A stretch of 64,000 nt of DNA, from positions 1 through 64,000 of IMG/VR virus record IMGVR_UViG_3300011754_000016. One strand, given 5' to 3'. Below, piece by piece: positions 3,592-38,232 of this stretch. Positions within the stretch are counted from its first letter, which is position 1, and every line of letters starts with the position of its first letter. Under the pieces are notes generated by a model that saw only the letters and a program-made list of their open reading frames with translations, did not search any database and was not told the DNA's origin. The position numbers and the translations under genes are program-made. The stretch is from an uncultured virus (IMG/VR IMGVR_UViG_3300011754_000016). Lineage: Duplodnaviria; Heunggongvirae; Uroviricota; Caudoviricetes.

Positions 3592-3593
3592 CG

Positions 3594-3872: not shown

Positions 3873-3950
3873 CTGTATAACTCCATGCTATGCCGTAACG
3901 GTCTGCTACGGCTTACATGGGCTATGTTATGTAGTAGGATATTATGCAGC

Positions 3951-3987
3951 ACCCTAAATGGGGTAAAGTCATACCCTAAATGGGGTA
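3951..3987. repeat. Two 15-bp direct repeats ACCCTAAATGGGGTA upstream of alpA (likely operator)
   Basis: Exact copies at 3951-3965 and 3973-3987 (22-bp period). Confidence 0.7.
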
Positions 3988-4009
3988 TAGGTTTGTTTTG
4001 GGGTGGTTA

Positions 4010-4573
4010 TTAATTAGGTTTAGGGCGCTTCTTTTTGGCATCGGCTAGCATTAGATTTGCATCTCTAAAGCGATTTTCTAAAGTGGTTTTGCGCTGTCCT
4101 TGAATGTCCTTATCTAATATATCTCCTATTATGGTGGCTTGGCTTTGAAATGGTGCCTTACCGTCTATACCCTTTGGCGTGGTCATTAACTCCAATAGCA
4201 AGCCTATAGTGGTTTGATAACTCTTTTCGGTATGGTCATTAAGCTGGCTGGTAGCATTTTCCTGTGATGGCGCTGGCTTGTTGTTATTACAGTCTATCAA
4301 TACTGCTTCATCTAAGCTGTCGTTAAACCTCTCGAGCGTATAGCCTTTATCCGCTAAGTATCTTTTAACTTCATCTACTAAAATTAATCCCTCATCATTA
4401 AAAACTTTAAGCTTGCCTGCCTTTATACTCGTTTCAATCATTTTGATAATCTGTTTATATCCTCTATTACCAATATTGAGTGAAATTGGGTCTAAGTCGC
4501 AAACTAAACAAGCTATTTCATTTGGAGTAAATAAATCTAAATCTACTAAATAGCTTTGATGCTCTCCTAACAT
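4010..4573 (-). CDS. Satellite hypothetical protein, possible regulator of alpA
   Basis: Likely ATG at 4573 (MLGEHQ...), directly after a structured leader; helical C-terminus. Confidence 0.65.
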   Translation of the reverse strand: MLGEHQSYLVDLDLFTPNEIACLVCDLDPISLNIGNRGYKQIIKMIETSIKAGKLKVFNDEGLILVDEVKRYLADKGYTLERFNDSLDEAVLIDCNNNKPAPSQENATSQLNDHTEKSYQTTIGLLLELMTTPKGIDGKAPFQSQATIIGDILDKDIQGQRKTTLENRFRDANLMLADAKKKRPKPN

Positions 4574-4672
4574 AATCCACACCCCTACACCCTTTAATAA
4601 AAATAGGTGCAAGGCGCTGACAGCATTAGGGTGTGGTTTGCTGTCGTTCGGGTAATTACTCCTAGCCTTGCA
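4571..4672 (-). ncRNA. Structured pseudoknotted 5'-leader RNA, copy 1
   Basis: P1 TGCAAGGC/GCCTTGCA; GGCTAGG..CCCGAAC; P3 GACAGCA/TGCTGTC with a CCACACCC loop complementary to two GGGTGT tracts beside the ATG. Confidence 0.6.
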
Positions 4673-4678
4673 AAGTTG

Positions 4679-5026
4679 TTACGCCATGCCCTCACTTTTG
4701 ACAGCATTGGCAAGCGTGTCGGTTATCCACTGATTAAGGCTCATGCCGTGGCTGGTAGCAATCGTGCTGACTTGCTCATGCAACTCGCTTGGCATACGGG
4801 TTACAAATTTACCTGAAAAGGATTTGTAAGGGGTAATACCTTGCTCTTGGCAAACGTCCAAAAAGGCTTGTAGTGACTGCCTGCCCTCATGTTCTAAAGC
4901 GGTGATGCTGTCACCATAAAAATCAGCGCCACCGTTTAAGCCAACAAATTCACCACGGAATAGGTCTATTTCAGGGTCGTATTGAATGATGGCTTTATGG
5001 TCATTAATCATCATAATATTTTGCAT
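4679..5026 (-). CDS. hicB: HicB antitoxin
   Basis: YDPEIDLFRGEFVGLNGGADFYG plus C-terminal RHH FSGKFVTRMPSELH...SLNQW. Confidence 0.92.
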   Translation of the reverse strand: MQNIMMINDHKAIIQYDPEIDLFRGEFVGLNGGADFYGDSITALEHEGRQSLQAFLDVCQEQGITPYKSFSGKFVTRMPSELHEQVSTIATSHGMSLNQWITDTLANAVKSEGMA

Positions 5027-5028
5027 GA

Positions 5029-5328
5029 TTACTCCTTATTATCCGTTGTGGGGGCAGTAGCGCGGGCGTCATCAATAGGGCTATACCCTAAGCTATCTAA
5101 CCATTTGCGAACACTGGCAACCGCGCCCTTATCCGTTGTCGGCTGGGGGTGGGGTCGGTGATAAACTTGAACTTCACCATCTAACACTACCGCCACTCTT
5201 GAGCCTGCCCTTTCGCTAACTTCTGCCCCTAATGCGATAAATAGGGCTTCAATATCTGCCCATTTTATATTTGCTGATATAGGCTTAGTAAATATAATAT
5301 TGAGTGTTTTTAAGTGCTTACGCTGCAT
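5029..5328 (-). CDS. hicA: HicA toxin (mRNase)
   Basis: IKWADIEALF..GSRVAV..HRPHP motif; lies upstream of hicB. Confidence 0.92.
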   Translation of the reverse strand: MQRKHLKTLNIIFTKPISANIKWADIEALFIALGAEVSERAGSRVAVVLDGEVQVYHRPHPQPTTDKGAVASVRKWLDSLGYSPIDDARATAPTTDNKE

Positions 5329-5351
5329 ATCTTATCCTTAGCTTATGTTTT

Positions 5352-5380
5352 ATTATAGTACCACTTATTGATACTAACAA
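5352..5380 (-). promoter_or_regulatory. hicAB sigma70 promoter with an internal inverted-repeat operator
   Basis: TTGTTA-N17-TATAAT on the minus strand; TAGTA-N11-TACTA overlaps the spacer. Confidence 0.6.
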
Positions 5381-5443
5381 TAGCTATTTAGTATCGCAAT
5401 TGGATTGACAGCATTTGCTATCAAAACTGGTGGTTTAAGCAAT

Positions 5444-5555
5444 TTAGGCAAATAAAGGCAACTTAGGCACGCTTAGGCATTGGGTCTTAATGACTTAATC
5501 CTTTGCCATATAAGGGCTAGACGCTATTTAGGCAGTTTAGGCACGTTTTTAGGTA
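5444..5555. repeat. TTAGGCA iteron-like repeat cluster (possible satellite ori)
   Basis: Exact copies at 5444, 5463, 5473, 5528, 5537; variants at 5454 and 5549; about 10-bp phasing beside AT-rich DNA. Confidence 0.65.
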
Positions 5556-5654
5556 AGTATAAATAAGCCTTATATTTATATTGATGCCGTAAACATAGCC
5601 CCTACCTGTATTTAAAAAGCTATAAAAATTAAATATAGGTCTGCCATTGGCGGC

Positions 5655-6893
5655 TTAGCCTTGCTTTTGTGCCTTTGGTTTAAAGTCTGCATGAATGACG
5701 TTATCCAGCTTGCCCGCATGGGCGCTATCAATAAAGTCTGCCCATTGGTTCATCATGTCAATGCGATAAGGCAAGTGCTGTGCCCCATTGTAAGCGGCGC
5801 TAATCTTATTCTCTCTATCGTGGGCTAATTGCAGCTCAATAGCTTCATGCTTAAAGCCTTGTTCATGCAGCGTGGTGCTGGCAAGCCCTCTAAAGCCGTG
5901 CCCTGTCATGCGCCCCTTATAGCCCATGCGCCATAGGGCAGTAATAAAAGCGTTTTGGCTGTATGGCTTGCGGGTCGATGGATTAAAGAAAACATACTTA
6001 TCCGAAAAGCCAAAGGCGCGTATCTGCTCAAGAATGGCAATCACTTGCGGCGCTAGCGGTACGATATGCACCCGCCCCGCTTTCATCTTATCGGCGGGTA
6101 TTGTCCAAAGGCGGCGCTTGTAGTCAATCTCGCACCATTCCATGAAGCGTAGCTCACTGGTTCGCACAAACGTGTAGCACATCACCCAAAAGCCCAGCCT
6201 TACCAAAATATCACCCTCATAGGCGTTAATGCTTTGTAGCAGCTTTGGCAGTTCTTGCACGTTGATGCGCTTATGGTTCACGGTCTTATGAGGCTTGATA
6301 GCGGCGGCAAGGTCAATGGCTGGGTTATTTATTGCCAAGCCGTTTCTAACGGCGTGTTTGAATATCTGCCCTATCTCTCTAATGGTACGCTTTGCCATTT
6401 CATTAGCGCCGCGCTGCTCTACTGCTTTGCCAATGGCAAGCACATCAGGGGCGGTTATATCGTCTATATTAAGATGACCAATAGCGGGCTTTACATCGCG
6501 CAAATAGGCGGAATAGTTGCGGCTAAAGGTACTTTCAGCAAGGTAGGTCTTGCGCTCGCTATACCACTGTTGAGCAATGGCATCAAAAGACTTTGTGCCA
6601 TCACTATCAGCCTTGCGCCGCTTCTTATCCTGCTTTGGGTCAATGCCTTGCGCTAGTAAATCTTTTATTTGTTGGTTGCGCTGGCGGGCATCAGCAAGCC
6701 CCATTGCGGGGTATTTGCCAATGGTCAGGCTTTGGCGCTTACCATTAAAGCTATAATCACTTACCCATGCCTTACTGCCACTATGACGCACCCAAAGGCG
6801 CAAGTTATCGCCATCGCTATATTTATCAGGATTATTAGGGGTGCAAGCGCTTGATGGCTTTAGGCGTTTGATTTGGCTATCAGTTAAGGGCAT
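5655..6893 (-). CDS. int: P4-like tyrosine integrase
   Basis: 412 aa; arm-binding N-terminus (DGDNLRLWV..LTIGKYP); catalytic R (VRTSELR), HGFR, QLAH, AYN. Confidence 0.95.
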   Translation of the reverse strand: MPLTDSQIKRLKPSSACTPNNPDKYSDGDNLRLWVRHSGSKAWVSDYSFNGKRQSLTIGKYPAMGLADARQRNQQIKDLLAQGIDPKQDKKRRKADSDGTKSFDAIAQQWYSERKTYLAESTFSRNYSAYLRDVKPAIGHLNIDDITAPDVLAIGKAVEQRGANEMAKRTIREIGQIFKHAVRNGLAINNPAIDLAAAIKPHKTVNHKRINVQELPKLLQSINAYEGDILVRLGFWVMCYTFVRTSELRFMEWCEIDYKRRLWTIPADKMKAGRVHIVPLAPQVIAILEQIRAFGFSDKYVFFNPSTRKPYSQNAFITALWRMGYKGRMTGHGFRGLASTTLHEQGFKHEAIELQLAHDRENKISAAYNGAQHLPYRIDMMNQWADFIDSAHAGKLDNVIHADFKPKAQKQG

Positions 6894-13386: not shown

Positions 13387-14274
13387 TTACCGTCTCATTT
13401 TTAAAATATCGTTAGAGTCCCACGCCATAAGTGACAGTAGGGTGATTTGTACTCTGACTAAGATGCGATTGCCTTGCTTGTTCATGGGCGCTGTGATGGG
13501 CGCCGATACGTTCTCAATAACCATTGGGTTATAGGTTTTGCCGCCATATCTCAATTGCACCAACGGCGGGATTAAAGAGGGGAACAACCCCTTTGATATG
13601 CCGCTTTCAAGCGTCGATACAAAAAGCGACTGGTCGGACAATTCAATAGGGGAAGCCCAGCTTTGCAAAAGCTCGATGGCATCCTCAACCTCTGCTTTAG
13701 CATCCGCCCACGCATGAAAAACCAAACTTCCGGAAATGCGAACTGAGTTGCTTGAAGTATAAATTTGGCGGCTGTTGAGTTTAGTAAAGTTGGAGCGACC
13801 CATGAGACCGCGTAGGGCAGTATCTGCTTCGCCAAACGCTGAGCTTGCTGCGTCACTGATTCCGGTTACCTCACCTACGGCGGAGGCAACATCGCCCACG
13901 CTTTCAGCTAACGCGCCCGCCATACCTGTTGGATCACCTGCCATTGCAAACACGTTATAAAGCGCTGCGCTTGCCTGCCCTGATTGGATCATCCCCATGA
14001 GGTTTGGCAATCGACTTTCAGGGTTTGAGGCTTCAAAGGGGGTGCTATATTGCGATTCAATAGTAAAGTCAGCATCCTCAAACAGCCCCTCAACAAATGG
14101 TTGAGTGGTATCCACGTTGTAAGTTTGCTTACCCTGCCCGCCCTCAATATTGCCTTCAGTAACTCGGCGTATTCGAGCAATCAAATGGGGGTTTAACCCC
14201 TTTTGTTGCCAAACCGTTCCTACTGACGGGCTTTGGGTAGTGGGTTTGCTTGCATTTTTGGGCGTCTTTTTCAT
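13387..14274 (-). CDS. Putative tail tube initiator / baseplate protein
   Basis: 295 aa; beta-rich tube-like C-terminus (PPLVQLRYGG..PMVIENVSAPI). Confidence 0.55.
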   Translation of the reverse strand: MKKTPKNASKPTTQSPSVGTVWQQKGLNPHLIARIRRVTEGNIEGGQGKQTYNVDTTQPFVEGLFEDADFTIESQYSTPFEASNPESRLPNLMGMIQSGQASAALYNVFAMAGDPTGMAGALAESVGDVASAVGEVTGISDAASSAFGEADTALRGLMGRSNFTKLNSRQIYTSSNSVRISGSLVFHAWADAKAEVEDAIELLQSWASPIELSDQSLFVSTLESGISKGLFPSLIPPLVQLRYGGKTYNPMVIENVSAPITAPMNKQGNRILVRVQITLLSLMAWDSNDILKMRR

Positions 14275-17200
14275 GATGTGCTTGCCATATCTTGCAGCGC
14301 TTTGATGCTAATTTCAGCAAGTCTTTTCTGATACGCTTCACTAATGGCATTTACTTTGATCATGAGCGCTTCATCACTTGCCACTTCATCAGCGATTTGG
14401 ATTAGCTCCTCAAGCAGTTCATTGTTTGGCTCAAAGTCGTCTGAATTAACCAGTTTTTCAATGTCATCTAAGCGGTTTTCAATGGTCATGTCAGGCTCGT
14501 TTTGTTGGGGCGCGTTTTCCTCTACGCCTTGCGGTTCGGGCGTGGGGGTAGTTTGTGCTTCGGGTTCGTTTTCAAGTTGGCTGAATAAATCATTGTCGGC
14601 AATAACTTGGTTGGCGTGACTAATAACATCGGCAAGTTTTAGCGGCTCAGGCTCGCCAAACATATCAAGCGTTTGGCGCTTGTTGGCATCACTGTCAATA
14701 AATCCTGCCATTGCTTTAAAATACTCTGCCATTTTTTTAGCGCTTCGGGCGTTTTGAGCAAGGAATACTGCAAGTTCGGCGGTGGCGTCATCAATATCAC
14801 CAAATAAGCCTTGCTGCTTAACATACTCGGCAACGTCTTGGTTGTTGCGCTTGGCGCTTAATAGCACGTTGCTTGCTTCCACAATCGCGCTTTTGACTTC
14901 ATCATCAATAGATTTTTCAATGCCGTTAACAAGACCATCTGCCACATCTTGAGCTTGAGCGCGGTTGCTGGCTTGCGCCTCGACAAACTTGCCAGCAGCA
15001 AGGCTTAGCGCGTTAATCATGTTTTGCAATTCAGGGTTGGTTTGATCCGCCATCATTTCAAGCAAGCGATCATCATCGTAAGCTTTGCTAAATACCGCCG
15101 CTTTCATTCGTGTGGCTAAAGCTTGCGTTGGCTGACCGTTACTGTCGGTATATTGCGCCGCTTCCGTTTCACCAAGGCTTGCTAAAAACGCTTTAACAAA
15201 CTGCTGATTACTTGCAGCAAGCAGGTCGCCGTTTTCGCTTGGTGTGAACAACTCAAGCATTCCACCAGTCAAGCGTTTGGCGTCACTTTTGGCGCGCTCT
15301 GACGCGGTAAAGCTCAGCTTGTCGTCTTGGTTGGCTTCAACAGTAAAGGCGGCGCGGTCAATGTTGGTGATGCGGATTCGTACCAAAATAGGGTGCTTGT
15401 ATTTTTCGACCTGCTCAGCACTAAAGCCAAACATATCAGCGTTATCAGCAAGCCAATTACGATACTCGCCAGCATCACCATTGGCGTACGCCATCTTGAT
15501 AGCAATGGTGCGACCGTTGCCGCTTTCCACGATTAAGTCATCACCAACGATAGGCGCGCCGGTATCAACGCGACTACTGCGACCCAAGCTTTCAGGATCA
15601 AGCTCTTTTGAGGTTTTTTGCACCCATGCAATTGAGGCGTCACGGCTTCGGTCACGCGGCTGTAATTCTTGCGGGTAATCAGGGTTTTCAGCGCCGCTTG
15701 CAGAATGCGAGGCGACCAACTTTTCGGCTTCAACCAAAGCAAATTTACTACTGATTTTTGTGCCTTTAGGGGTTTTGGCTTGGCTTGTTTTGCCGGTGGT
15801 AATACTGTTGCTTGGGGTTGCTGCTTGCTCGGTAGGCGCGGCTGATTCATCTTGAGCGCTTGCCAGCGTGTTTTCATCTTGAGTGGCGTTATCCTCAATA
15901 ACAGGCTCGGGTTTACGACCATCTTCAGGAATAGAGAAGTTGTAACTCTTGTCCTTATTAAATAAGTCGATTAATTCTTCTAAGTAATTGACGTTGTACT
16001 TATCAGCCATAGCTACGATGAACTTTGAGGTTCGTGCGGCATTCATTTGAGTATAAGGGTACTTAGTGCTTGGTGCTCTAACGTCCACAAGCTCGCTATC
16101 TTCAAGATAAAAGCGACCCATTTTGTCAAACATACCTTTGGGGTGTAGCTTTCTGTCTTTTAGCAAGGTATAAACAGTTTTAATATCAGCCTTGCTTAAA
16201 GTATGACCTCTTGACTTGATTGCGGCTACCAGTTGCTTTAGCCCATCATAGGCGTTTTTAGCATCTTCGTTTTCGGACAAATCTTTGGCGTAATCATCAT
16301 CCAAAAACTCAAGGAATCGTTCGAGATAGACGCTGTTCTTGGGGTTGAATTTAGTGTCTTTTTCGGAAAGCGATAATTCAAAAGCAAGGGTATCTATATA
16401 ACCCTCAGTATCATCGATTGTTTTATTGGTGATTTCTTGCGGTGAGATTGGTGTATCTTGAGTGCTTGCCGGCGCATTTTCTTCTACCGCTACGGTTTCC
16501 ACAGTTTTTTCGATTTTCGGCGCTTTCATTGCTGCGTCGATCTTTTTATTTAAGTCGTCAATGGTGCTATCTAAGTCGCTGATGGTTTTAGTTTTATCGC
16601 TAATGCGCTGCTCAGCATCGCTAATGTCTTGATCCATTTGCAGCTTGCGGGCTTGCGCGGATTTAAAGCGCTTACTGTTTTTAGCAGCCACACGCATGAT
16701 GCGATTCGCCAATACTGGCAATTGAACATTATCCCCATTTTTCGGTGACAGTACGGCGGTCACATCACGCTTGTTCAACATCCATTTCCAAGAAATCATA
16801 ATGTCGCTTGGTGCAAGCTTTAGCGGGGTGCTGTCAGGATTATGGAACCAAATAGAAACGCTTTGACCGTCGGATAAGTCAAAAACAAAGGCGATATTCG
16901 ACACGCCTTGACGCTTAAACGGCTTGGTTTGAGTGACGTTAACCACCGATAAACTGTCATTGCTGGCACGGCTCATGGCGGCAAAAAGGCGGTCTTTTAG
17001 TAGCGGCAACCGGTTTTTGGTTTCCATCAAAGCATCAAAGCTTTCTTCTTCAGCGCCCAAATCTTGCAATTCTGCGGTCAAATCAAGCGCGTTGATTAAC
17101 TCATGGCGGCTATCAGCGCGAACCATATCAAGATATAACGTGCTATCGCTGCCGCCGTGGCTGGCAAGCGCTAAGCTTTCGATAGAGTCCCATTGGACTT

Positions 17201-17717
17201 CATCAAAAGTGACGCGCCGGCGCTCCGCCTCAAGCTCGCTTGCGGTGATGATAGGTAAGTAGTTTTTATTCTGTGATGGGTTATCTAATAGCTTGCTGAT
17301 CGCGTCAATTGACCAGCCGTTATCGCAATCTGCGCTATCAAACTGGCTTGCTTCGGAACTGACCAGTACAAAGCTATAGCTGTCATCACTTGTTAAGCTA
17401 TCAAACTGACTGCGCGCCACTTGCAGGGCATGAGCAGCATCAAGCGCTCCGCCAATAGCAAAGCTGTCGATATAGGCACCGTTTTCATCAAAGCTGTTAA
17501 GCAGATACCAATTGTCATCATCACTGCCAACGCTTGCGTCAAACCCTAAGCCATCAAAGCCGGTCGTGTCTGCAATGACGGCGTTAAGGTTTCGGTAATT
17601 GCCGGTGATGACGCCGGACTCATAACGACTGTAACGCGGTTTGATTTCGCCATCTGCTTGCAAAATATTGCGCTTGGTATGAGCTTTATAAGTGGTTTGG
17701 TACGCCATGATTGCCAT
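14271..17717 (-). CDS. DarA-like / DdrB-ParB-like fusion, internal virion protein
   Basis: 1148 aa; acidic FD-rich N-terminus, PFKRQGV..LSDGQSVSIWFHNPD (P1 DarA-like), coiled coil, NPDYPQELQPRDR..GAPIV..VESGNGR (DdrB-like ParB domain). Confidence 0.75.
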   Translation of the reverse strand: MAIMAYQTTYKAHTKRNILQADGEIKPRYSRYESGVITGNYRNLNAVIADTTGFDGLGFDASVGSDDDNWYLLNSFDENGAYIDSFAIGGALDAAHALQVARSQFDSLTSDDSYSFVLVSSEASQFDSADCDNGWSIDAISKLLDNPSQNKNYLPIITASELEAERRRVTFDEVQWDSIESLALASHGGSDSTLYLDMVRADSRHELINALDLTAELQDLGAEEESFDALMETKNRLPLLKDRLFAAMSRASNDSLSVVNVTQTKPFKRQGVSNIAFVFDLSDGQSVSIWFHNPDSTPLKLAPSDIMISWKWMLNKRDVTAVLSPKNGDNVQLPVLANRIMRVAAKNSKRFKSAQARKLQMDQDISDAEQRISDKTKTISDLDSTIDDLNKKIDAAMKAPKIEKTVETVAVEENAPASTQDTPISPQEITNKTIDDTEGYIDTLAFELSLSEKDTKFNPKNSVYLERFLEFLDDDYAKDLSENEDAKNAYDGLKQLVAAIKSRGHTLSKADIKTVYTLLKDRKLHPKGMFDKMGRFYLEDSELVDVRAPSTKYPYTQMNAARTSKFIVAMADKYNVNYLEELIDLFNKDKSYNFSIPEDGRKPEPVIEDNATQDENTLASAQDESAAPTEQAATPSNSITTGKTSQAKTPKGTKISSKFALVEAEKLVASHSASGAENPDYPQELQPRDRSRDASIAWVQKTSKELDPESLGRSSRVDTGAPIVGDDLIVESGNGRTIAIKMAYANGDAGEYRNWLADNADMFGFSAEQVEKYKHPILVRIRITNIDRAAFTVEANQDDKLSFTASERAKSDAKRLTGGMLELFTPSENGDLLAASNQQFVKAFLASLGETEAAQYTDSNGQPTQALATRMKAAVFSKAYDDDRLLEMMADQTNPELQNMINALSLAAGKFVEAQASNRAQAQDVADGLVNGIEKSIDDEVKSAIVEASNVLLSAKRNNQDVAEYVKQQGLFGDIDDATAELAVFLAQNARSAKKMAEYFKAMAGFIDSDANKRQTLDMFGEPEPLKLADVISHANQVIADNDLFSQLENEPEAQTTPTPEPQGVEENAPQQNEPDMTIENRLDDIEKLVNSDDFEPNNELLEELIQIADEVASDEALMIKVNAISEAYQKRLAEISIKALQDMASTS

Positions 17718-17801: not shown

Positions 17802-17827
17802 AAAAAAACCCCGCGAGGTGCGGGGTT
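17802..17827 (-). terminator. Rho-independent terminator
   Basis: AACCCCGC/GCGGGGTT stem plus a T run on the minus strand. Confidence 0.75.
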
Positions 17828-17844
17828 CGGTTGGTTTAAAAAGG

Positions 17845-18165
17845 TTAGCAAATCGTGCAGTCTATATCATCCTCACCCATGACAGCACTTAGCGTTACAT
17901 CGCCATCGCAGTCGTAATCTTTAAAATACTTTTTGCCGTCTGTGTCGATAATCGTGTAGCTATAGCCTTCCTTGTCCAGCTTATGCGCCATCTTAGCTGC
18001 CGCCCGCTCACTCATGTGAGTGGTGTAACCTTTTCCGCCGTAGTAGTCAGCAAGAACCACTGCGTAGATACATCCAGCGGCGAATTTAATTTCGCGCTCG
18101 CAATCCTTGCTATGGATTGAGTGAATAGACGCCATTGGCTTTTGATCCAAAATTAAAGTAGTCAT
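17845..18165 (-). CDS. Hypothetical protein, candidate anti-CRISPR/anti-defence
   Basis: 106 aa with an acidic C-terminus; GGAG RBS; own promoter carrying the shared operator. Confidence 0.65.
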   Translation of the reverse strand: MTTLILDQKPMASIHSIHSKDCEREIKFAAGCIYAVVLADYYGGKGYTTHMSERAAAKMAHKLDKEGYSYTIIDTDGKKYFKDYDCDGDVTLSAVMGEDDIDCTIC

Positions 18166-18222
18166 GATTTTTTACTCCGTATTAAGTCTTGCTATTTAAG
18201 TTATCTTGCTTGATATGGGTAC

Positions 18223-18251
18223 AATATAAGGGTAATTTTACCCCATGTCAA
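18223..18251 (-). promoter_or_regulatory. Sigma70 promoter with operator GGGTAATTTTACCC
   Basis: TTGACA-N17-TATATT; palindrome at 18230-18243 in the spacer. Confidence 0.8.
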
Positions 18252-18351
18252 CACCTATTTTAATTTACTTTTAAATATCTATTTTTAATAAATCCTTTTT
18301 ATATATGCCAAAAAAATTATAAAAAGGATTTAAATTATTTTATAATCGCGC

Positions 18352-18380
18352 TTGACTTAGGGTAATTTTACTCTTAATAT
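18352..18380 (+). promoter_or_regulatory. Sigma70 promoter with operator GGGTAATTTTACTC
   Basis: TTGACT-N17-TAATAT; near-identical palindrome at 18360-18373. Confidence 0.8.
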
Positions 18381-18488
18381 ATGAATCGTCAACTGGACGA
18401 CAGATGATACGGCAACAGATTATTTAACAGACGAAACAAACAGCAATCAAGCTGGCATGACTTGCCAGCAAACAAAAGGATTACGATC

Positions 18489-18986
18489 ATGACAAACTTA
18501 ACTTTATCAAACGGTCAATCAATTACTACTACTGATTTTGATCACAACTATCACAGCAGTCAAAAACACTCATCAAACTTTGTTTCTGAGTACGTGCTTC
18601 ATAATCTTGATGTTTATAACGAGGTTATGGGTATGTCAGCAGTTTACCAAGCAGGTCAATCTTACATTCACGGCGACTACTCAACGCCAAGCGCTAAACT
18701 TGAGCTTAGTGAGGACGGTGGCGCAGACGGACGACTTATTAAAATCAACAATCTATATGAGGCTGATTTTGATGATGAAACTTGCAGCGAATATTTGCAA
18801 GAAATGGTTGGTGACTTAGAAATCGAGGGCATTAACACTGTTAGCGACTTGAGAAACCTATACTTAGAACTTATGGATAATAACTCTCTCGCTCAGCAAT
18901 ACGCCGACAACCTTGACATTGAGCCGGTTTTTCTGAGCGACGAGCCAGATTTTACCGACGCTCCTGACCACTCTGATATTTATTAA
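18489..18986 (+). CDS. Highly acidic hypothetical protein, candidate anti-CRISPR
   Basis: 165 aa from ATG 18489 after an AAGGA RBS; D/E-rich; first gene of the aca2-acrVA2 operon. Confidence 0.75.
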   Translation: MTNLTLSNGQSITTTDFDHNYHSSQKHSSNFVSEYVLHNLDVYNEVMGMSAVYQAGQSYIHGDYSTPSAKLELSEDGGADGRLIKINNLYEADFDDETCSEYLQEMVGDLEIEGINTVSDLRNLYLELMDNNSLAQQYADNLDIEPVFLSDEPDFTDAPDHSDIY

Positions 18987-18995
18987 ACCAACCCT

Positions 18996-19021
18996 AAGCG
19001 CTCTAATCGGGGCGCTTTTTT
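18996..19021 (+). terminator. Internal terminator/attenuator before aca2
   Basis: AAGCGCTCT/GGGGCGCTT stem plus a T run. Confidence 0.6.
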
Positions 19022-19040
19022 GCTTTAAGGAAAAAAAATC

Positions 19041-19511
19041 ATGAACGATACAACATTAAAGCTTATTGCCATGCGCCGAGCGCTTGGCTTAAACGCTTCT
19101 GAGCTTGCTGAACTACCCGCTGTGCAACTTAACAAGCGCACCATTGCAACGTATGAGCGTTTTGAGCGTCTGCCTGCGCAATCCTACATTGAGTCAATGC
19201 ACGGCTTGAGCGTGTTTTATCAGCTGCTACTCTCAAATCTTAATGCAGACATTACGCTGCACAAATTGCAAGCTGGCAAGCCTGAACTGCCCTACTTTAA
19301 AGAGTTTGCCGACTTTGAGCGCGTAACGGGTAACGACTGCCAAACTTATTGGCGACTCTGGCAAGCAGTCATTGGTCATCTTGTGATGACCGGCGCTATT
19401 GATAGCATTAACGATGACGCGCCACTCCCTGCCAGCTTCAAGCAGTCCAAATTTTGGCTTGATAAGGGCTATGATGTGACCGATTTAGATAAGATGGAGG
19501 ACGCGCAATGA
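19041..19511 (+). CDS. aca2: Aca2/YdiL (DUF1870)-family anti-CRISPR-associated HTH repressor
   Basis: N-terminal HTH (AMRRALGLNASELA..RTIATYE) and LPYFKEFADFERVTG..YWRLWQAV, matching the Aca2 pattern. Confidence 0.8.
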   Translation: MNDTTLKLIAMRRALGLNASELAELPAVQLNKRTIATYERFERLPAQSYIESMHGLSVFYQLLLSNLNADITLHKLQAGKPELPYFKEFADFERVTGNDCQTYWRLWQAVIGHLVMTGAIDSINDDAPLPASFKQSKFWLDKGYDVTDLDKMEDAQ

Positions 19512-20548
19512 CGCCATTTGAGCAGATGCAAGCGTTTAACCGCGAGTTTGATGACGCCAAGCCGATTTACCGGCAGATGCAGGAGTGGCAAATCAAAAAT
19601 GCGCCGGACAATGGTGTATTTTACCCCTCAAGCCATATTTACAGCGCATCACCACGGCTAATGTCAGCCGTGATTGCTGGCAAGATCGGTAATACCACAG
19701 TTGACAGTATGAGCGCCGAGCAATTAACGCTGCTCAGGTATTTTTGGGGATTGCACTTGTTTGGCGCGTGGCGCAACACGCTTGGTGTTTACCGCATTGA
19801 CCCCGATATTTTTAGCCAAATCATCAAATCACCCATCCCGGATGATACACCGTCGATTGTTTTTGAGCGCTTGCCTGAGTGGTGTGTTTATATCGAGATG
19901 CCGCCAAAGGCGCTGACAGTGATTGCAGGCAGTGGCAGGCAAGCGGTTTGTAGTGGGTTTTGGGCGCTGTTTGATCTGCAGAACGTCAATGGCAAAATGC
20001 AGCCGGCGCTTAATTTAGTGCTTGATGTCGATGATGATGTTAAGACGACTCACGACGCTTATCAGCCGCTTATCCTGCCCATTGATAAAAATATGACCAT
20101 TCGTGAGGCGGTTTTAGCGATCTTTGATAGCGATTTGCACCGCGTCAACGATGCCCTACTGAGTCGCGCCAATGCCGAAACCGAAATGAAGATCATGTTT
20201 CACTTGCTATCATTGCTACTTTGGCTTTGCGCTGAAGAACCGGATATTAGCAATATCAAGGGCGAGCCAATTAGCGGCGATCAGCTTAGACTACCAAAAT
20301 ACCGGGTCAATAAAAAAACAGGCGTCTTTATTCCGCCAAGCCAGCCGATCATCTACAATATCGGTAAGCGACTTGGCGGTGAGGTCAGGCAGTTTAATGA
20401 AAAATGCGGCGCTGGTGACAGCCGCATATCAGCACGAAAGCGACCACATATCAGGCGCGGTCACTGGCATGGCGTTTGGTCGGGAATCGGTCAAGATAAA
20501 CAGTTTCGGGTTTATTGGCAGCCAGCGATTTTTGTTAATGCAAATTAA
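19508..20548 (+). CDS. acrVA2: AcrVA2-family anti-CRISPR protein
   Basis: GAWRNTLG, PDDTP..LPEWCVY, GFWA, LLWLC.EPDI, NKKTG.F, KRPHIRRGHWHG.W, WQPA.FVN, collinear with Moraxella AcrVA2 as recalled. Confidence 0.9.
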   Translation: MTPFEQMQAFNREFDDAKPIYRQMQEWQIKNAPDNGVFYPSSHIYSASPRLMSAVIAGKIGNTTVDSMSAEQLTLLRYFWGLHLFGAWRNTLGVYRIDPDIFSQIIKSPIPDDTPSIVFERLPEWCVYIEMPPKALTVIAGSGRQAVCSGFWALFDLQNVNGKMQPALNLVLDVDDDVKTTHDAYQPLILPIDKNMTIREAVLAIFDSDLHRVNDALLSRANAETEMKIMFHLLSLLLWLCAEEPDISNIKGEPISGDQLRLPKYRVNKKTGVFIPPSQPIIYNIGKRLGGEVRQFNEKCGAGDSRISARKRPHIRRGHWHGVWSGIGQDKQFRVYWQPAIFVNAN

Positions 20549-20570
20549 TTTAATTCTTTTAAAATATCAC

Positions 20571-20599
20571 TTGTAATCTAAGTCGGCTTAGATTACAAT
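20571..20599 (+). promoter_or_regulatory. Sigma70 promoter covered by a perfect 12-bp inverted repeat
   Basis: TTGTAA-N17-TACAAT; TTGTAATCTAAG-TCGG-CTTAGATTACAA. Confidence 0.8.
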
Positions 20600-20668
20600 A
20601 CAAACATCAAGACAAGATACGTGCAGGTATTTCTTGATAATTAAACACACCAAACCGGAGTAAACATT

Positions 20669-20890
20669 ATGAACACTACTAAAATCACCAAGCCTTTCGC
20701 CAAATCTTTTAATACCTTGCTCGGCGGCGAAACTGTCAGCTACAGCCCTCGCTACAACAAAGTAGCTATTGGTAATGATGCTGTTGAAGTCTCAGAAGAA
20801 ACGATGGACGAAATTCTTGATACAAGCGACGCTTACGGCGATAAATTCCGCTTGGTAGTCAGCGCTTTTGAACAAGCAGCATCAAACTAA
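20669..20890 (+). CDS. Small hypothetical protein, candidate anti-defence
   Basis: 73 aa, GGAG RBS, acidic C-terminal half. Confidence 0.7.
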   Translation: MNTTKITKPFAKSFNTLLGGETVSYSPRYNKVAIGNDAVEVSEETMDEILDTSDAYGDKFRLVVSAFEQAASN

Positions 20891-20905
20891 ATCGCCAAGA
20901 AAAGA

Positions 20906-20936
20906 AAAAGCCCTTGATGTGCAGTCAAGGGCTTTT
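20906..20936 (+). terminator. Rho-independent terminator
   Basis: AAAAGCCCTTGA/TCAAGGGCTTTT. Confidence 0.7.
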
Positions 20937-21022
20937 AGCCATCTAAGCGATGGTAAACACACCAACTCGGTAAACCGAATCAGTAAAGCGATTATGCAAT
21001 ATTTGGTCGCTAAAGACAAGGA

Positions 21023-21685
21023 GTGAAAATGGCAAAATTCAAAATGTGCGAACGATGCCAGCAGGAAAAAGAGATCGAGCTATTCCGCCTAAAAAATAGA
21101 AAGCTTGGAAAAATTTGCCTAGATTGCCGCAAAAAATGTGTAGTTTGCAACAATCCAATCGCCAATCAGACCAGTTTAGGAACCAAGTATTGCAGCGATA
21201 ATTGCCGCCGAACTTTTGACTATCAACAAAGAGCGCGGAAGCGAGCGGAGGCTATTTTTGAAGACCCTGATTACTACAAAAAGCAGTATGAAAAGGCAAA
21301 GGCGCGAGGCTGGAAAACGTACAATCCTGATAATAAGCGTGAGTATTATTACAGTGTCGCAAAGCAAAGACGGCAATCATCGCCTGAGTTGATGCAAAAG
21401 CAATGCGAAGCTGCAAAGGCGTATTACCGTCGAAATCGTGAAGAAATCCTTACAAAGAAACAAAATGTGACGCCCGAACAAAGAGAGATTTATAACCGTG
21501 GCGTGAGAAATTGGCGAAGAACCCGGCTTGAGAATATGACTGCTGAGCAGATTGCCGCTGACAAACGCCATGCAAATGCAATTAATAGGCAATCAAGAGC
21601 ACGATCAAGACTTGAGAAAATGCGGCTAGACTTCGCAAAAATTGAAAATTTAACCATACAAAATAAGGAACAGAATGATGAATGA
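21023..21685 (+). CDS. Basic zinc-finger protein
   Basis: Three CxxC and one CxxxC motif, then R/K-rich helices. Confidence 0.7.
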   Translation: MKMAKFKMCERCQQEKEIELFRLKNRKLGKICLDCRKKCVVCNNPIANQTSLGTKYCSDNCRRTFDYQQRARKRAEAIFEDPDYYKKQYEKAKARGWKTYNPDNKREYYYSVAKQRRQSSPELMQKQCEAAKAYYRRNREEILTKKQNVTPEQREIYNRGVRNWRRTRLENMTAEQIAADKRHANAINRQSRARSRLEKMRLDFAKIENLTIQNKEQNDE

Positions 21686-22307
21686 ATTAATCAACAAAGA
21701 CGATTTGCAACAATTAGATGATAACCAATTATTAAAAGAGTTTAAAAACTCCTTAAGCCTGACTGTTTTTCATTTGCAAAAAATGGCAGTTATTTGGGAT
21801 ATTTTGACCAATCGGGGTATAGATTTATCAGAATACAAAAAAGGTTTGATTGAGTTTGTACCGCTGATTGCTCAAAACAAGCTTATCCCTGAGTTTGTGA
21901 CCGACTTTGCAGGTCAGAGAAATCTCATTAACCATGTATCAAGAATCCCGGTTGAAGAACAGCGGCGACTATTAAAGGTTGGGAAAGTTGAAAAACTGAC
22001 CATTTTGGAAGATGGTGCTGAGGTCGTACAGAATTTAGACCTCAACGAAATTAAAAGCGGCGAACTTTATCAGATTTTTGGCTCAGATAAATTGCGAACA
22101 ATAGAGGATCAGCGATTACTGCTTATAAAGCAAATGCCAAAATCAAAACCTAAAAAGCAACCAAAGCTAAAAACTTATCGCAAAGTTAGTATTGATAATA
22201 ACCAAGAATATTTGGTGCTGGGTAGCGAGGCTAAAGTTAAATTATCGGAGGTTTTAGAATTGATTAAAGCAACTTACAACGTTGATATCCCCAAAGAGGT
22301 AAAATGA
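21675..22307 (+). CDS. Hypothetical protein
   Basis: 210 aa, translationally coupled to both neighbours. Confidence 0.7.
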   Translation: MMNELINKDDLQQLDDNQLLKEFKNSLSLTVFHLQKMAVIWDILTNRGIDLSEYKKGLIEFVPLIAQNKLIPEFVTDFAGQRNLINHVSRIPVEEQRRLLKVGKVEKLTILEDGAEVVQNLDLNEIKSGELYQIFGSDKLRTIEDQRLLLIKQMPKSKPKKQPKLKTYRKVSIDNNQEYLVLGSEAKVKLSEVLELIKATYNVDIPKEVK

Positions 22308-22495
22308 TGACAAGCAGAAAATCAGACAGTGAATACACGTCAAAATATAACAATAAGAGGCAAGCCGAACGCTTTGAAATCAAATTTTATCTTGATGACG
22401 ATAAGGAGCGGCGGATTTATGAGCAGCTATCAAAAGAGCCGAATCGCAAGCAGCTAATCTTGGAGTTGCTTAAAAATCATTATAGTGATGAATGA
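22304..22495 (+). CDS. Small ribbon-helix-helix-like protein, candidate Aca-type autorepressor
   Basis: 63 aa; helix, RFEIKFY strand, two helices; last gene of the operon. Confidence 0.55.
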   Translation: MMTSRKSDSEYTSKYNNKRQAERFEIKFYLDDDKERRIYEQLSKEPNRKQLILELLKNHYSDE

Positions 22496-22497: not shown

Positions 22498-22523
22498 AAA
22501 ACCCCGCCTAACCGCGGGGTTTT
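22498..22523. terminator. Bidirectional terminator
   Basis: AAAACCCCGC/GCGGGGTTTT between convergent genes. Confidence 0.8.
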
Positions 22524-33496: not shown

Positions 33497-34054
33497 TTAT
33501 ACTGATGCGCTGGCAAGATCAGCTTGCAGCTCTATTTGCTCAAGTTGCTGCTCAAGCTCGCTGATTTGCGTCTGCTTTTGCTCAATCGTGACATCAAGCT
33601 CTTTTTCTTGAGCCAGTAGCGCATTTCGCTGTTGTGATTTATTTTGTGGGGCGCGACCTGTGGTTTTATTGTTGCTTGGCGGCTTGACGCGCTTCATGGC
33701 TAGCTTTTTGGTAAATGCCGCCTGACCTGTCTTGATGGTATTGGCAACCATATCAACCGAAGCGTTAAACACCGGCTTATAGCTGTTGTCAAAATCGCCT
33801 GATAGCGGTTGTGATTTGCCGTTAATGTCAATGCGAAAAATATCGAAATGGTCATCGGTCACGCGCAAATAGATCATCACGACCTGACCATTTTCAAGCA
33901 TGATTCGCACCGGTCTTGCTGATGCGCCTGATACGCGCTTGATCTTTTCAACCTCGACAATCGGAATGGCTTGTTTGGCAGATCGCTTGAGCCTTGCTAC
34001 AAAATCTTTGACCAGTGGGGTTTTTTCGGTAATGTCGGATAACTTTACGCTCAT
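33497..34054 (-). CDS. Hdf / DarA-N-terminal-like head protein
   Basis: KRVSG..LENGQVVMIYLR..DIFRIDINGK plus a C-terminal coiled coil. Confidence 0.65.
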   Translation of the reverse strand: MSVKLSDITEKTPLVKDFVARLKRSAKQAIPIVEVEKIKRVSGASARPVRIMLENGQVVMIYLRVTDDHFDIFRIDINGKSQPLSGDFDNSYKPVFNASVDMVANTIKTGQAAFTKKLAMKRVKPPSNNKTTGRAPQNKSQQRNALLAQEKELDVTIEQKQTQISELEQQLEQIELQADLASASV

Positions 34055-35941: not shown

Positions 35942-37318
35942 TTAGCGAACAACGGTAGTATCAAGGAATACTTGGCGCGCACAGCCTTCGGGTCGGCGGC
36001 TAAATTTCACGTCGGCTTTTTCAAACGGGTTATCTTGCCGGCGCGTGATCTGCAAGCCATAGTACAATCCGCCAAGCTCGCTTGATGGCATCAAAAGCCC
36101 AGCATCAACACAAGCGTTCAAAAAGCGCTCACAATCGGCGGTGGCATCTTCGATAAAGCTGCTCATGGCTTTAAGTAAGTGCTTTTTAATAATTGAGATA
36201 ATGCCGTTGGTGGTGTAGGTTTCAATCTCTGAGCTATTAATTAAGCGCAAAGCCGACGTTTGGCTGTCATATTGCGTCAAGGCATCGCCAAAAACCCAGC
36301 GATCCCCACCTTCAAAACGCTCATTCATCACCACGTTAATTCCGGCTTTGGCTAAGGCGTTTTGGGCTTCTTCATCAAGATTCACGCCTGCCAATTTTTC
36401 CATATCGCGGAAGTTTAGCGGGAAGTCGTAACCGGCAACAGGGCGAGCAATCGGCGGGATTCCTGATGCGTTGGTGTTGGCATTGCGTAGTAGCAATTGC
36501 GCTAATAAATCCCCAACGCAAGGTCGCCATTTTTTACGGGCAAGCACACTGGCGCTGCCGGCAGGTCGTGATTTGTTTGGGTTCCAAAACACCCAAAAGC
36601 GGTGATCGTTGATGCTGATTGACTCAACCAACGCTACCGCCGCCGTCCAATCAGTGATTGCACCAATATCAAGCAAAACATGACAATTAAGCTTACTCAT
36701 CACCTCAGCGGTCGCTTCGATAATTGGCAAGCTATCCACTTCACAAAGCGCGATATAACGTGGGCGCTCCTTCATATCCACAAGCTTTGCGCGAACCTCA
36801 AGCGGGGTTAAATCGGTCACCTCGCTTGCCGGCACGTCAACCGTGGCAGACTTGATGCGGTAGTCGCCAATGACGTTATAAGCACCAATAGTTTCAAGCG
36901 CAGTCTTGATCGCAGCGGCACTTGATGCGCTGTATTTTGTTTCTACCGCTTCAAAGAAATCATTCTCGCCATCAAGCGCGCCGCTAAAATCAAGCTTTTG
37001 CGTGATATAGCCAAAGTTTCCGGCATGGTTTTCTTCCAAAGCCTCAACGCCGCCGCCGGTGTAAAGCCGACCGCGAAGCTCAGTGATGATGCCGCCGTCA
37101 ATCTTGTCAATAAAACTGATACTAAATAGCAGGCTGTTTAGCGGGTCGGTTGGCGTTGCGCCGGATTTTTCATCGGTGACCACAAGTTTAACCTGAGCGT
37201 TATTGTCAAAGCCGTAATGCGTGGCAAGCTTGATGCTGGCAAGTGCATCAAGTGCTTCAATGTCGGTGAGCGTCAGGGATGACGCCGTGATGTTAAGATA
37301 AAGGGTTTGAGCGTCCAT
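35942..37318 (-). CDS. Tail sheath protein
   Basis: Sheath C-terminus (LAKAGINVV..FGDALT..LRLIN..FLNACVDAGLL..RRPEG); likely start MDAQTL downstream of the late promoter. Confidence 0.8.
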   Translation of the reverse strand: MDAQTLYLNITASSLTLTDIEALDALASIKLATHYGFDNNAQVKLVVTDEKSGATPTDPLNSLLFSISFIDKIDGGIITELRGRLYTGGGVEALEENHAGNFGYITQKLDFSGALDGENDFFEAVETKYSASSAAAIKTALETIGAYNVIGDYRIKSATVDVPASEVTDLTPLEVRAKLVDMKERPRYIALCEVDSLPIIEATAEVMSKLNCHVLLDIGAITDWTAAVALVESISINDHRFWVFWNPNKSRPAGSASVLARKKWRPCVGDLLAQLLLRNANTNASGIPPIARPVAGYDFPLNFRDMEKLAGVNLDEEAQNALAKAGINVVMNERFEGGDRWVFGDALTQYDSQTSALRLINSSEIETYTTNGIISIIKKHLLKAMSSFIEDATADCERFLNACVDAGLLMPSSELGGLYYGLQITRRQDNPFEKADVKFSRRPEGCARQVFLDTTVVR

Positions 37319-37352
37319 AATAAAAAAGCCTATACGATTGAAGTATAGGCTT

Positions 37353-38228: not shown

Positions 38229-38232
38229 AGGT

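What the first reader, a model, noticed from the sequence alone, without database searches (positions are those of the whole stretch)
17845..22495. Anti-CRISPR island inside the structural region: acrVA2, aca2 and several unknown genes
Seen: a terminator-bounded block, mostly on the opposite strand, with three promoters and eight genes. Known: AcrVA2 inhibits Cas12a biogenesis and was found in Moraxella acr loci; Aca2 marks acr operons. I do not recognise the other ORFs as any Acr I recall (AcrVA1, VA3, IF11, IF13, IF14, IC1). By guilt-by-association, the 106-, 165-, 73-, 220- and 210-aa proteins are candidate new inhibitors of CRISPR or other defences.
Basis: partly seen in the sequence, partly recalled or inferred. 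Interest (0 to 1): 0.85.

Follow-up and report, generated by a model that had tools for sequence, protein, structure and literature searches.

The report
Prophage anti-defence island with AcrVA2 homologue
A 4.7-kb block of eight foreign genes sits at a variable spot in the structural genes of a P1-like prophage; it carries a clear relative of the anti-CRISPR AcrVA2, its likely repressor, and six unknown genes, two of them good candidates for new counter-defence proteins.

Summary
Eight ORFs lie at 17845-22495, seven of them on the strand opposite to the flanking genes, with strong hairpin terminators at both ends.

- **AcrVA2 homologue (346 aa):** PDB 7CI1, E 3.8e-71. All five residues whose mutation impaired AcrVA2 are kept.
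- **Aca2-like protein (156 aa):** a divergent Aca2/YdiL member. It is weak as a single sequence, but a profile of it and 36 relatives hits the Aca2 structures at E 8e-24. Its stop overlaps the acrVA2-like start.
- **Shared operator:** a 13-nt word holding an inverted repeat occurs only twice in the window. Each copy lies between the -35 and -10 of one of two divergent promoters, so the 106-aa gene and the 165-aa/aca2/acrVA2 operon look co-repressed.
- **Hotspot:** in related phages the same site is empty (2) or holds other cargo (1).
- **Six unknown genes:** they match no Acr, defence or solved-structure family.
- **Association strength:** good for the 106-aa family (23 viral loci, 5 with a coupled small HTH/RHH gene, 3 beside AcrVA2-family genes) and for the 165-aa gene. 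It is weaker for the 73-, 220-, 210- and 63-aa genes, which form separate units.
- **Target:** Cas12a is not shown to be the target. Only 1 of 14 Moraxellaceae genomes with this family also has Cas12a, and the host genome is not held.

This is a new member of a known kind, with worthwhile candidates.

The parts
17806..17828 (.). Left boundary hairpin terminator, usable on both strands; ends the 106-aa gene's transcript
   Evidence: - strand -16.0 kcal/mol, z -3.65, followed by UUUUUUUCUU
17845..18165 (-). g106: 106-aa protein of an unnamed family with an invariant YYGGKGYTTH motif; candidate counter-defence protein
   Evidence: 31 clusters; invariant R24, Y41-H50; AF2 pLDDT 90.6; no fold match; contexts
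18223..18251 (-). Promoter of g106 (TTGACA-17-TATATT) with operator copy 1 (AGGGTAATTTTACCCC, 18229-18244; arms GGGTAA/TTACCC) between its -35 and -10
18289..18332 (.). Perfect 15-nt inverted repeat (14-nt spacer) midway between the divergent promoters; role unknown
   Evidence: I4
18352..18380 (+). Promoter of the g165/aca2/acrVA2 operon (TTGACT-17-TAATAT) with operator copy 2 (AGGGTAATTTTACTCT, 18359-18374) between its -35 and -10
   Evidence: same layout in L101
18389..18403 (+). Leader word TCAACTGGACGACAG, identical in the leader of a related aca2-like operon from a metagenome
   Evidence: 15 of 15 identical in L101
18451..18469 (+). 7-bp leader hairpin about 10 nt before the g165 ribosome-binding site
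   Evidence: -13.4 kcal/mol, z -3.21; absent from L101
18489..18986 (+). g165: acidic (pI about 4) 165-aa protein, first gene of the aca2 operon, which is the usual position of an acr gene; candidate inhibitor
   Evidence: 10 clusters; His-rich conserved N-terminal block; model pLDDT 64.8, no fold match; no PDB sequence match
18996..19017 (+). GC-rich hairpin plus T-run between g165 and aca2; likely attenuator or terminator, kept in sequence in L101
   Evidence: -12.6 kcal/mol, z -1.47: weak on energy alone
19041..19511 (+). Aca2-like helix-turn-helix regulator (156 aa), putative repressor of both divergent promoters
   Evidence: weak alone; profile hits Aca2 PDB entries at E 8e-24 to 5e-19; 32 of 37 aligned sequences hit PF08965
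19508..20548 (+). AcrVA2-family protein (346 aa), start overlaps the aca2 stop by 4 nt
   Evidence: phrog_6160, E 1.5e-53; 7CI1, E 3.8e-71, residues 5-345 against 7-318; PHIRRGHWHG motif invariant
20571..20599 (+). Promoter-like site (TTGTAA-17-TACAAT) wholly covered by a perfect 12-bp palindrome (20571-20582 / 20587-20598): candidate operator of the g73 unit
   Evidence: I10; -13.1 kcal/mol, z -6.61
20669..20890 (+). g73: acidic 73-aa protein, single-gene unit
   Evidence: no family; 68.6% identical gene among structural genes of Acinetobacter phages NL and SR
20906..20936 (.). Terminator hairpin after g73
   Evidence: -21.3 kcal/mol, z -4.82
21023..21685 (+). g220: basic (pI 9.9), 9-Cys protein with zinc-ribbon-like N-terminus and a long K/R-rich helical tail; likely start at ATG 21029
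   Evidence: (DUF2116 treble clef, E 4.5e-4, below cut-off)
21675..22307 (+). g210: 210-aa protein of a tiny family (6 clusters), lowest GC of the island (35%)
22304..22495 (+). g63: 63-aa last gene of the right-hand operon; possible ribbon-helix-helix regulator
   Evidence: nearest named clusters are all RHH, score 0.85-0.86, a lead only; 53% homologue about 450 nt upstream of the AcrVA2 homologue in an Acinetobacter genome
22498..22523 (.). Right boundary hairpin terminator, usable on both strands
   Evidence: -16.4 and -18.2 kcal/mol, z -4.65 and -4.22

Best explanation
The block is horizontally acquired counter-defence cargo at a variable site between the portal-adjacent gene and the DarA-like virion gene of a P1-like Moraxellaceae prophage. 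It is a mosaic of units.

Left module (best supported): two divergent sigma-70-type promoters drive g106 leftwards and g165, a hairpin, the aca2-like gene and the acrVA2-like gene rightwards. Each promoter carries the same inverted repeat (GGGTAA-TT-TTACCC) between its -35 and -10. I infer that the Aca2-like helix-turn-helix protein binds both copies and shuts both promoters after an early burst, as Aca2 does in phage ZF40. The 346-aa protein is a true AcrVA2-family member. By analogy it binds the nascent N-terminus of one target protein and causes loss of that protein's mRNA through the conserved C-terminal HxR..H motif. The target is Cas12a if the host has type V-A, and otherwise another host or mobile-element protein. 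g106 and g165 are co-regulated candidate inhibitors of unknown target.

Right module (weaker): g73 is a single-gene unit whose promoter is covered by a perfect 12-bp palindrome. g220, g210 and g63 form an operon that ends in a small, possibly ribbon-helix-helix, regulator, which is the layout of an acr-aca operon.

Shown here: gene content, homologies, repeats, hairpins, and the hotspot. Inferred: every binding event, the regulation, and all targets.
For: AcrVA2 homology: E 3.8e-71, near full length. W79, D89, H286, R288 and H291 of AcrVA2 (mutations impair function; passages of bioRxiv 10.1101/2022.11.29.518452) align with W88, D98, H314, R316 and H319.

Aca2: a profile of the protein and 36 relatives hits four Aca2 PDB sequences at E 7.9e-24 to 5.3e-19 and YdiL at 2e-14. 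32 of the 37 aligned sequences hit PF08965. There is a 4-nt stop/start overlap with the acrVA2-like gene.

Operator: the 12-nt core GGGTAATTTTAC occurs twice in 64 kb with up to 1 mismatch allowed (0.38 expected; 4 of 100 shuffles reach 2). Both copies lie inside the 296-nt divergent region, each between a -35 and a -10. A related aca2-like operon (L101, 42% identity) has the same layout: an inverted repeat between -35 and -10, an identical 15-nt leader word, an unrelated first gene, then the same GC-rich hairpin before aca2.

Hotspot: of three related phages, L096 and L097 join the 218-aa homologue to the DarA-like gene with a 140-150-nt gap, and L095 has a different 2.6-kb five-gene cargo there.

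g106 family: 23 viral loci. In 5 of 23 (L011, L012, L015, L016, L025) a 61-70-aa HTH_31 or NikA-like RHH gene starts at the homologue's stop. In 3 of 23 (L010, and the near-duplicates L023 and L024) an AcrVA2-family gene of only 25% identity to the window's lies just downstream. Others sit beside terminase, integrase or DNA methylase genes.

g63: a 53% homologue lies about 450 nt upstream of a 51% AcrVA2 homologue in an Acinetobacter genome.

Mosaic composition: genes range from 35% to 49% GC.

Literature: Aca proteins, including Aca2 and the RHH protein Aca14, are reported to control neighbouring anti-defence operons through repeated operators (passages of PMC13551039).
Against: - No function was tested and nothing shows expression.
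- The Aca2-like protein alone is below Pfam's cut-off (18.4 against 23.8 bits). Its inverted repeat differs from the TTCG-core repeats of ZF40 (passages of PMC6765145).
- Cas12a as target is unsupported. Among 401 Moraxellaceae genomes, 14 have Cas12a and 14 have the AcrVA2 family, but only one (G189) has both. The genomes holding the closest homologues (G001, G002, G056, G300) gave no Cas12a hit.
- E98, D129 and D195 of the crystallographic AcrVA2-Cas12a interface align with P, G and A, although the preprint reports that interface as dispensable.
- 341 spacers from 12 type V-A arrays gave no convincing match to the prophage.
- g73's closest homologue sits among virion genes of lytic Acinetobacter phages.
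- g63 relatives also lie next to DNA methyltransferases and on plasmid-like contigs, so that family is a general small regulator.
- g106's invariant motif is unusual for fast-evolving inhibitors that work by simple binding.
Confidence: 0.7

Rival explanations
1. The AcrVA2 homologue is not an anti-CRISPR here. Like FinQ, it silences some other target (a rival plasmid or phage gene, or another defence protein), and the island serves conflict between mobile elements in general.
For: 527 plasmid records hold relatives, nearly all annotated FinQ on conjugative enterobacterial plasmids. Only 1 of 14 family carriers among 401 Moraxellaceae genomes has Cas12a. The preprint states that homologues typically occur without Cas12a. 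It is 40-43% identical to homologues in Moraxellaceae prophage and plasmid records, including L035, the closest to the solved AcrVA2 seen here. 0 of 3 crystallographic interface residues are kept.
Against: It aligns with AcrVA2 over its whole length, including the N-terminal region that differs in distant members. Cas12a does occur in the family Moraxellaceae (14 of 401). W79, which is needed for AcrVA2 function, is kept.
Confidence: 0.4
2. Only the left module is counter-defence. The right-hand genes (g73; g220, g210, g63) are unrelated morons, for example lysogen-benefit, exclusion or regulatory genes, that merely landed in the same hotspot.
For: They are separate units with their own promoter-like site, palindrome and terminators, different GC, and no copy of the Aca2-type operator. 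A g73 homologue lies in a structural gene cluster of lytic phages. g63 relatives lie beside methyltransferases and on plasmid-like contigs.
Against: A g63 homologue lies next to an AcrVA2 homologue in another genus. The operon ends in a small regulator-like gene, as acr-aca operons do. No PADLOC defence family is hit.
Confidence: 0.35
3. The unknown ORFs are not real genes and the block is mostly non-coding filler around two real genes.
For: Six of the eight have no family match. Promoter-like sites are not enriched.
Against: Four of the unknowns that were searched have homologues elsewhere at 30-87% identity with conserved motifs: g106 31 clusters, g165 10, g210 6, and g73 and g63 in Acinetobacter phages. 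For g220 only Atlas look-alike clusters of viral hypothetical proteins were seen (score 0.90-0.91, a lead). The ORFs tile the block with short gaps or overlaps.
Confidence: 0.03

Closest known systems
AcrVA2 of Moraxella bovoculi prophages (PDB 7CI1, 7CI2)
   Same: Homologous over nearly the full length (E 3.8e-71). The C-terminal PHIRRGHWHG motif and W79/D89 equivalents are kept. It is prophage-borne in Moraxellaceae, next to other small unknown genes and a regulator.
   Different: 346 aa against 322, with insertions. About 40-43% identity to close homologues in Moraxellaceae records. The three residues of the crystallographic Cas12a interface are not kept. Its neighbours share nothing with the M. 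bovoculi-type loci seen here (L033-L036, L042, L086). Presence of Cas12a in the host is unknown.
FinQ of IncI/F-like plasmids (AcrVA2-family fertility inhibitor)
   Same: Same family and same C-terminal motif; encoded on a mobile element.
   Different: Only 22% identity over residues 85-344; different N-terminal region; plasmid rather than prophage.
Aca2 of Pectobacterium phage ZF40 and relatives (PDB 7B5J, 7EZY, 7VJO, 8W35; Pfam PF08965)
   Same: N-terminal HTH plus Aca2/YdiL-type dimerisation region by profile. It sits in an operon with an acr-type gene, with an inverted repeat over the promoter and a hairpin in the transcript before a ribosome-binding site.
   Different: 156 aa with a roughly 30-aa C-terminal extension. 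Below Pfam's cut-off alone. The operator sequence is unrelated to the TTCG-core repeats. aca2 lies upstream of the acrVA2-like gene rather than last. The same operator also sits on a divergent second promoter.
Aca14, a 66-aa ribbon-helix-helix Aca of Pasteurella multocida (PMC13551039)
   Same: g63 is of similar size, is the last gene of an accessory operon, and gives an RHH lead. Aca14 operons lack HTH aca genes and control neighbouring operons.
   Different: The palindrome in this block differs from the published Aca14 site.
P1 Dar anti-restriction system (DarA, DdrB, Hdf)
   Same: The island abuts a 1148-aa DarA_N plus ddrB-ParB protein, and an Hdf-like gene lies at 33497-34054, so the phage also carries virion-borne anti-restriction functions.
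   Different: Those are conserved phage genes on the other strand, present in relatives that lack the island.

Membership tests
AcrVA2/FinQ family | Full-length sequence homology to AcrVA2 | tested here: met
   E 3.8e-71, query 5-345 against chain 7-318; phrog_6160, E 1.5e-53
AcrVA2/FinQ family | C-terminal HxR..H motif (H286, R288, H291) needed for mRNA down-regulation | tested here: met
   H314, R316, H319 within an invariant PHIRRGHWHG; the residue roles come from passages of bioRxiv 10.1101/2022.11.29.518452
AcrVA2/FinQ family | W79 and D89 equivalents | tested here: met
   W88 and D98 conserved
AcrVA2 as a Cas12a inhibitor | Crystallographic Cas12a-interface residues E98, D129, D195 | tested here: not met
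   alignment: they pair with P109, G141 and A223 (the last in a poorly aligned stretch); the preprint reports this interface as not needed in vivo
AcrVA2 as a Cas12a inhibitor | Host carries type V-A, and the protein lowers Cas12a mRNA and protein | not testable with these tools
Aca2 (Pfam PF08965 Aca2_YdiL) | Sequence membership of the Aca2/YdiL family | tested here: met
   Alone: 18.4 bits, below the 23.8 cut-off, and 7EZY at E 1e-3. With relatives: the profile hits Aca2 chains at E 7.9e-24 to 5.3e-19, and 32 of the 37 aligned sequences hit PF08965
Aca2 | Encoded in one operon with an acr gene | tested here: met
   4-nt overlap with the AcrVA2 homologue; g165 lies upstream in the same unit
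Aca2 | Inverted-repeat operator overlapping the operon promoter | tested here: met
   the repeat lies between -35 and -10 of both divergent promoters; binding itself is not testable here
Aca2 | Canonical TTCG-core IR1/IR2 operators and the published 5' UTR RNA motif | tested here: not met
   the operator and the leader hairpins have a different sequence; Rfam gave nothing above cut-off
Aca14 / ribbon-helix-helix regulators (for g63) | RHH fold or homology to Aca14 | tested here: inconclusive
   the nearest named clusters are all RHH but score 0.85-0.86; Pfam and PDB give no hit; comparison with Aca14 was not run
Known anti-CRISPR or anti-defence families (for g106, g165, g73, g220, g210, g63) | Sequence match to a described family or a solved Acr structure | tested here: not met
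   (Pfam, PHROGs, NCBIfam) for all six; PDB sequence searches for g106, g165, g210, g220 and g63, not for g73; fold searches for g106 and g165 are inconclusive. Anti-CRISPRdb, AcrHub and dbAPIS are not held here
Known anti-phage defence systems (PADLOC) | Match to a defence-system protein model | tested here: not met
   0 of 8 island proteins hit at E <= 0.001

The most novel reading that the evidence does not exclude
The g106 family (about 90-106 aa; invariant YAVVLA-YYGGKGYTTH core; confident predicted fold with no match in the PDB) is an undescribed, widespread phage counter-defence family. It is regulated like an acr gene, by coupled small HTH/RHH repressors in other phages and by the shared Aca2-type operator here. 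Its strict motif conservation suggests that it acts on a conserved small ligand or by catalysis (for example as a signal-nucleotide sponge or modifier) rather than by simple steric blocking. In parallel, g165 would be a new inhibitor in the classic acr position.
Probability: 0.35. Interest if true: 0.65.

Novelty: new member of a known kind. Interest (0 to 1): 0.5.

Why it matters
AcrVA2 is the only anti-CRISPR reported so far to act on Cas protein biogenesis (passage of bioRxiv 10.64898/2026.02.23.707548). Most of its relatives have unknown targets. A 40-43%-identical relative with its own regulator, at a mapped phage hotspot, is a tractable case for asking what sets target choice in this family.

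The shared operator gives a concrete, testable regulon: one Aca2-like repressor and two promoters. It singles out two unknown proteins, g106 and g165, as the best candidates out of six. The g106 family recurs in 23 other viral contigs in acr-like settings, so a result would apply beyond this phage.

If none of this holds up on testing, the island is an ordinary moron cluster.

Tried and rejected
- **tblastn against 50,697 phage records:** no match for g165, g106, g220 or g210.
- **Fold searches:** the g106 model (pLDDT 90.6) gave best Foldseek PDB E 0.75, best VIA Z 4.0, and best BFVD E 0.024 to an unnamed protein. The g165 model is mediocre (pLDDT 64.8) and gave best Z 3.1. No family can be named from either.
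- **Obligate partner of the AcrVA2 family:** neighbours in 41 viral loci are almost all different. g106 relatives occur in 3 of 41 and weak Aca2-profile hits in 4 of 41, so no fixed partner exists.
- **g165 relatives:** found in 1 of 301 Moraxellaceae genomes, in a P4-like island after a primase. This is uninformative about function.
- **g63 relatives:** none in viral contigs; 3 of 401 Moraxellaceae genomes.
- **Aca2-like subfamily loci:** only L098 and L101 were useful.
- **Spacer search:** 341 spacers from type V-A arrays in 12 of 14 Cas12a loci gave no convincing match to the 76.7-kb record (best 19 of 26-29 nt with 2 mismatches, E about 0.24). The sample holds one genome per species.
- **Rfam:** nothing above any gathering score.
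- **Complex prediction:** the AcrVA2 homologue with Cas12a N-termini (alignment A10) was not available, so no binding test was made.
- **PF26125 'AcrVA2-like':** The Pfam scan gave no family for the 346-aa protein.
- **g220 as a CasPR-type zinc-finger silencer:** considered, but no domain match supports it.

Full report
**What is there.** The window is the first 64 kb of a 76.7-kb IMG/VR provirus record. PHROGs and Pfam name a P1-like myovirus: portal, PmgG-like head protein, sheath, tube, baseplate, an Hdf-like anti-restriction gene, and a 1148-aa DarA_N plus ddrB-ParB protein. Almost all long ORFs are on the - strand.

Seven are on the + strand. The block is closed by GC-rich hairpins with U-runs at 17807-17828 and 22498-22523. 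Two more hairpins lie inside it, at 18996-19017 and 20906-20936.

**It is cargo at a hotspot.** Three related phages were found with the 218-aa protein as query.
- In L096 and L097 the homologue is followed by the DarA-like gene after 140-150 nt, with no island.
- In L095 a different 2.6-kb set of five genes fills the gap.

Gene-by-gene GC runs from 35% to 49%. The island is therefore a mosaic that was acquired, not core phage content.

**The two named genes.** The 346-aa protein matches AcrVA2 (7CI1) at E 3.8e-71 over residues 5-345 and phrog_6160 at 1.5e-53. The local Pfam has no family for it.

I read passages of the preprint 10.1101/2022.11.29.518452. It reports that AcrVA2 binds the nascent N-terminus of Cas12a and triggers loss of its mRNA. 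It also reports that W79A, D89A, H286A, R288A and H291A impair function. All five positions are kept here, as W88, D98, H314, R316 and H319. The chain numbering offset of one was checked. Three residues of the crystallographic Cas12a interface, which the preprint calls dispensable, are not kept.

The 156-aa protein is weak on its own: PF08965 at 18.4 bits against a 23.8 cut-off, and 7EZY at E 1e-3. An exhaustive search found 40 relatives. A profile of the protein and 36 of them hits four Aca2 PDB sequences at E 8e-24 to 5e-19 and YdiL at 2e-14, and 32 of the 37 aligned sequences hit PF08965. Some rows may themselves be ordinary Aca2 proteins, which helps the profile. Its stop overlaps the acrVA2-like start by 4 nt.

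**Regulatory anatomy.** The 296-nt gap between g106 and g165 holds two divergent promoter-like sites: TTGACA-17-TATATT on the - strand and TTGACT-17-TAATAT on the + strand.
- The 13-nt word AGGGTAATTTTAC occurs at 18229 and at 18359. Its 12-nt core is found nowhere else in the window, even with one mismatch allowed (0.38 expected).
- Each copy lies between a -35 and a -10 and forms the inverted repeat GGGTAA-TT-TTACCC. The second copy has one mismatch.

This is what an Aca-type autorepressor site looks like (ZF40 Aca2, passages of PMC6765145), although the sequence differs. A 2026 paper reports that Aca proteins often control neighbouring operons through repeated sites (passages of PMC13551039).

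A metagenomic relative (L101, 42% identical regulator) shows the same plan:
- an inverted repeat between -35 and -10;
- an identical 15-nt leader word;
- an unrelated first gene;
- the same GC-rich hairpin before the regulator gene.

So the first-gene slot is exchangeable, as expected for acr genes.

**The unknown genes.** None matches Pfam, PHROGs or NCBIfam convincingly, or PADLOC at all. The five searched against PDB sequences (all but g73) match none of them.

*g106* belongs to a family of 31 clusters with an invariant YYGGKGYTTH core. Its model is confident (pLDDT 90.6) and has no fold match. In 23 viral loci:
- 5 have a 61-70-aa HTH_31 or NikA-like RHH gene starting at its stop;
- 3 (two of them near-duplicates) have an AcrVA2-family gene only 25% identical to the window's just downstream;
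- others lie by terminase, integrase or methylase genes.

That is independent support for a counter-defence role.

*g165* is acidic, has 10 clusters of relatives with a conserved His-rich block, and sits in the acr position. Its model is poor.

*g73* has its own promoter-like site under a perfect 12-bp palindrome and its own terminator. Its 69%-identical homologue lies among the virion genes of lytic Acinetobacter phages.

*g220* is basic and Cys-rich, with zinc-ribbon-like motifs.

*g210* has only 6 clusters of relatives.

*g63* gives only an RHH lead. Its relatives lie upstream of an AcrVA2 homologue in Acinetobacter, beside methyltransferases and on plasmid-like contigs.

**Is it anti-CRISPR?** This is not shown.
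- Among 401 Moraxellaceae species genomes, Cas12a is in 14 and the AcrVA2 family in 14, but both occur only in G189, about 32 kb apart.
- The genomes with the closest homologues gave no Cas12a hit.
- 527 plasmid records carry relatives, mostly FinQ.
- 341 type V-A spacers gave no real match to the prophage.

**Verdict.** The block is an anti-defence-type cargo island of a known kind. It has a well-defined Aca2-like regulon and two good candidate inhibitors (g106 and g165). The target of its AcrVA2 homologue is uncertain, and the counter-defence role of its right-hand half is unproven.

Noticed in passing
window 35942-40939: The tail sheath looks split. A 110-aa ORF (40607-40939) matches the sheath N-terminus, and a 490-aa ORF (35942-37414) matches profile positions 174-530. 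Between them lie about 3.2 kb of low-GC DNA (30-37%) with three genes (158, 446 and 339 aa) that have no Pfam, PHROG or PADLOC match. This may be an insertion into the sheath gene, or a second cargo hotspot.
   Followed up: partly
window 14271-17717 and 33497-34054: P1 Dar-type anti-restriction genes: a 1148-aa DarA_N plus ddrB-ParB protein directly beside the island, and an Hdf-like protein. The phage therefore carries virion-borne anti-restriction functions as well.
   Followed up: partly
window 20642-20658 and 20954-20970: A 17-nt direct repeat (TAAACACACCAAACCGG / TAAACACACCAACTCGG, 88% identical) lies upstream of both g73 and g220. It may be a shared leader or control element of the right-hand units.
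   Followed up: no
window 1-6893: A primase-helicase-like gene, a HicB-like antitoxin (4679-5026) and a tyrosine integrase (5655-6893) sit at the window's start. This may be a second, P4-like element or the prophage's integration module.
   Followed up: no
L086:6396-7562 (genome G056): A 388-aa protein with Cas_Csy2 (30.9 bits, above cut-off) and weak Cas_Csy1 matches lies just downstream of an AcrVA2 homologue. It could be a Cas-derived decoy in an acr locus.
   Followed up: no
L095:4007-6445: Alternative cargo at the same phage hotspot: five same-strand genes (286, 87, 112, 91 with DUF1456, and 162 aa). The last resembles a 70-aa gene seen in L098 near another aca2-like operon.
   Followed up: partly
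L088:1577-2050 (genome G300): A 157-aa protein with a C-terminal HTH_3 domain overlaps the start of a 45%-identical AcrVA2 homologue by 4 nt. This is the same coupling as in the window but with a different regulator architecture.
   Followed up: partly
window 61326-62753: DNA methyltransferase-like ORFs (159 and 222 aa) that look like pieces of one larger methylase. This may be a split or frameshifted gene.
   Followed up: no
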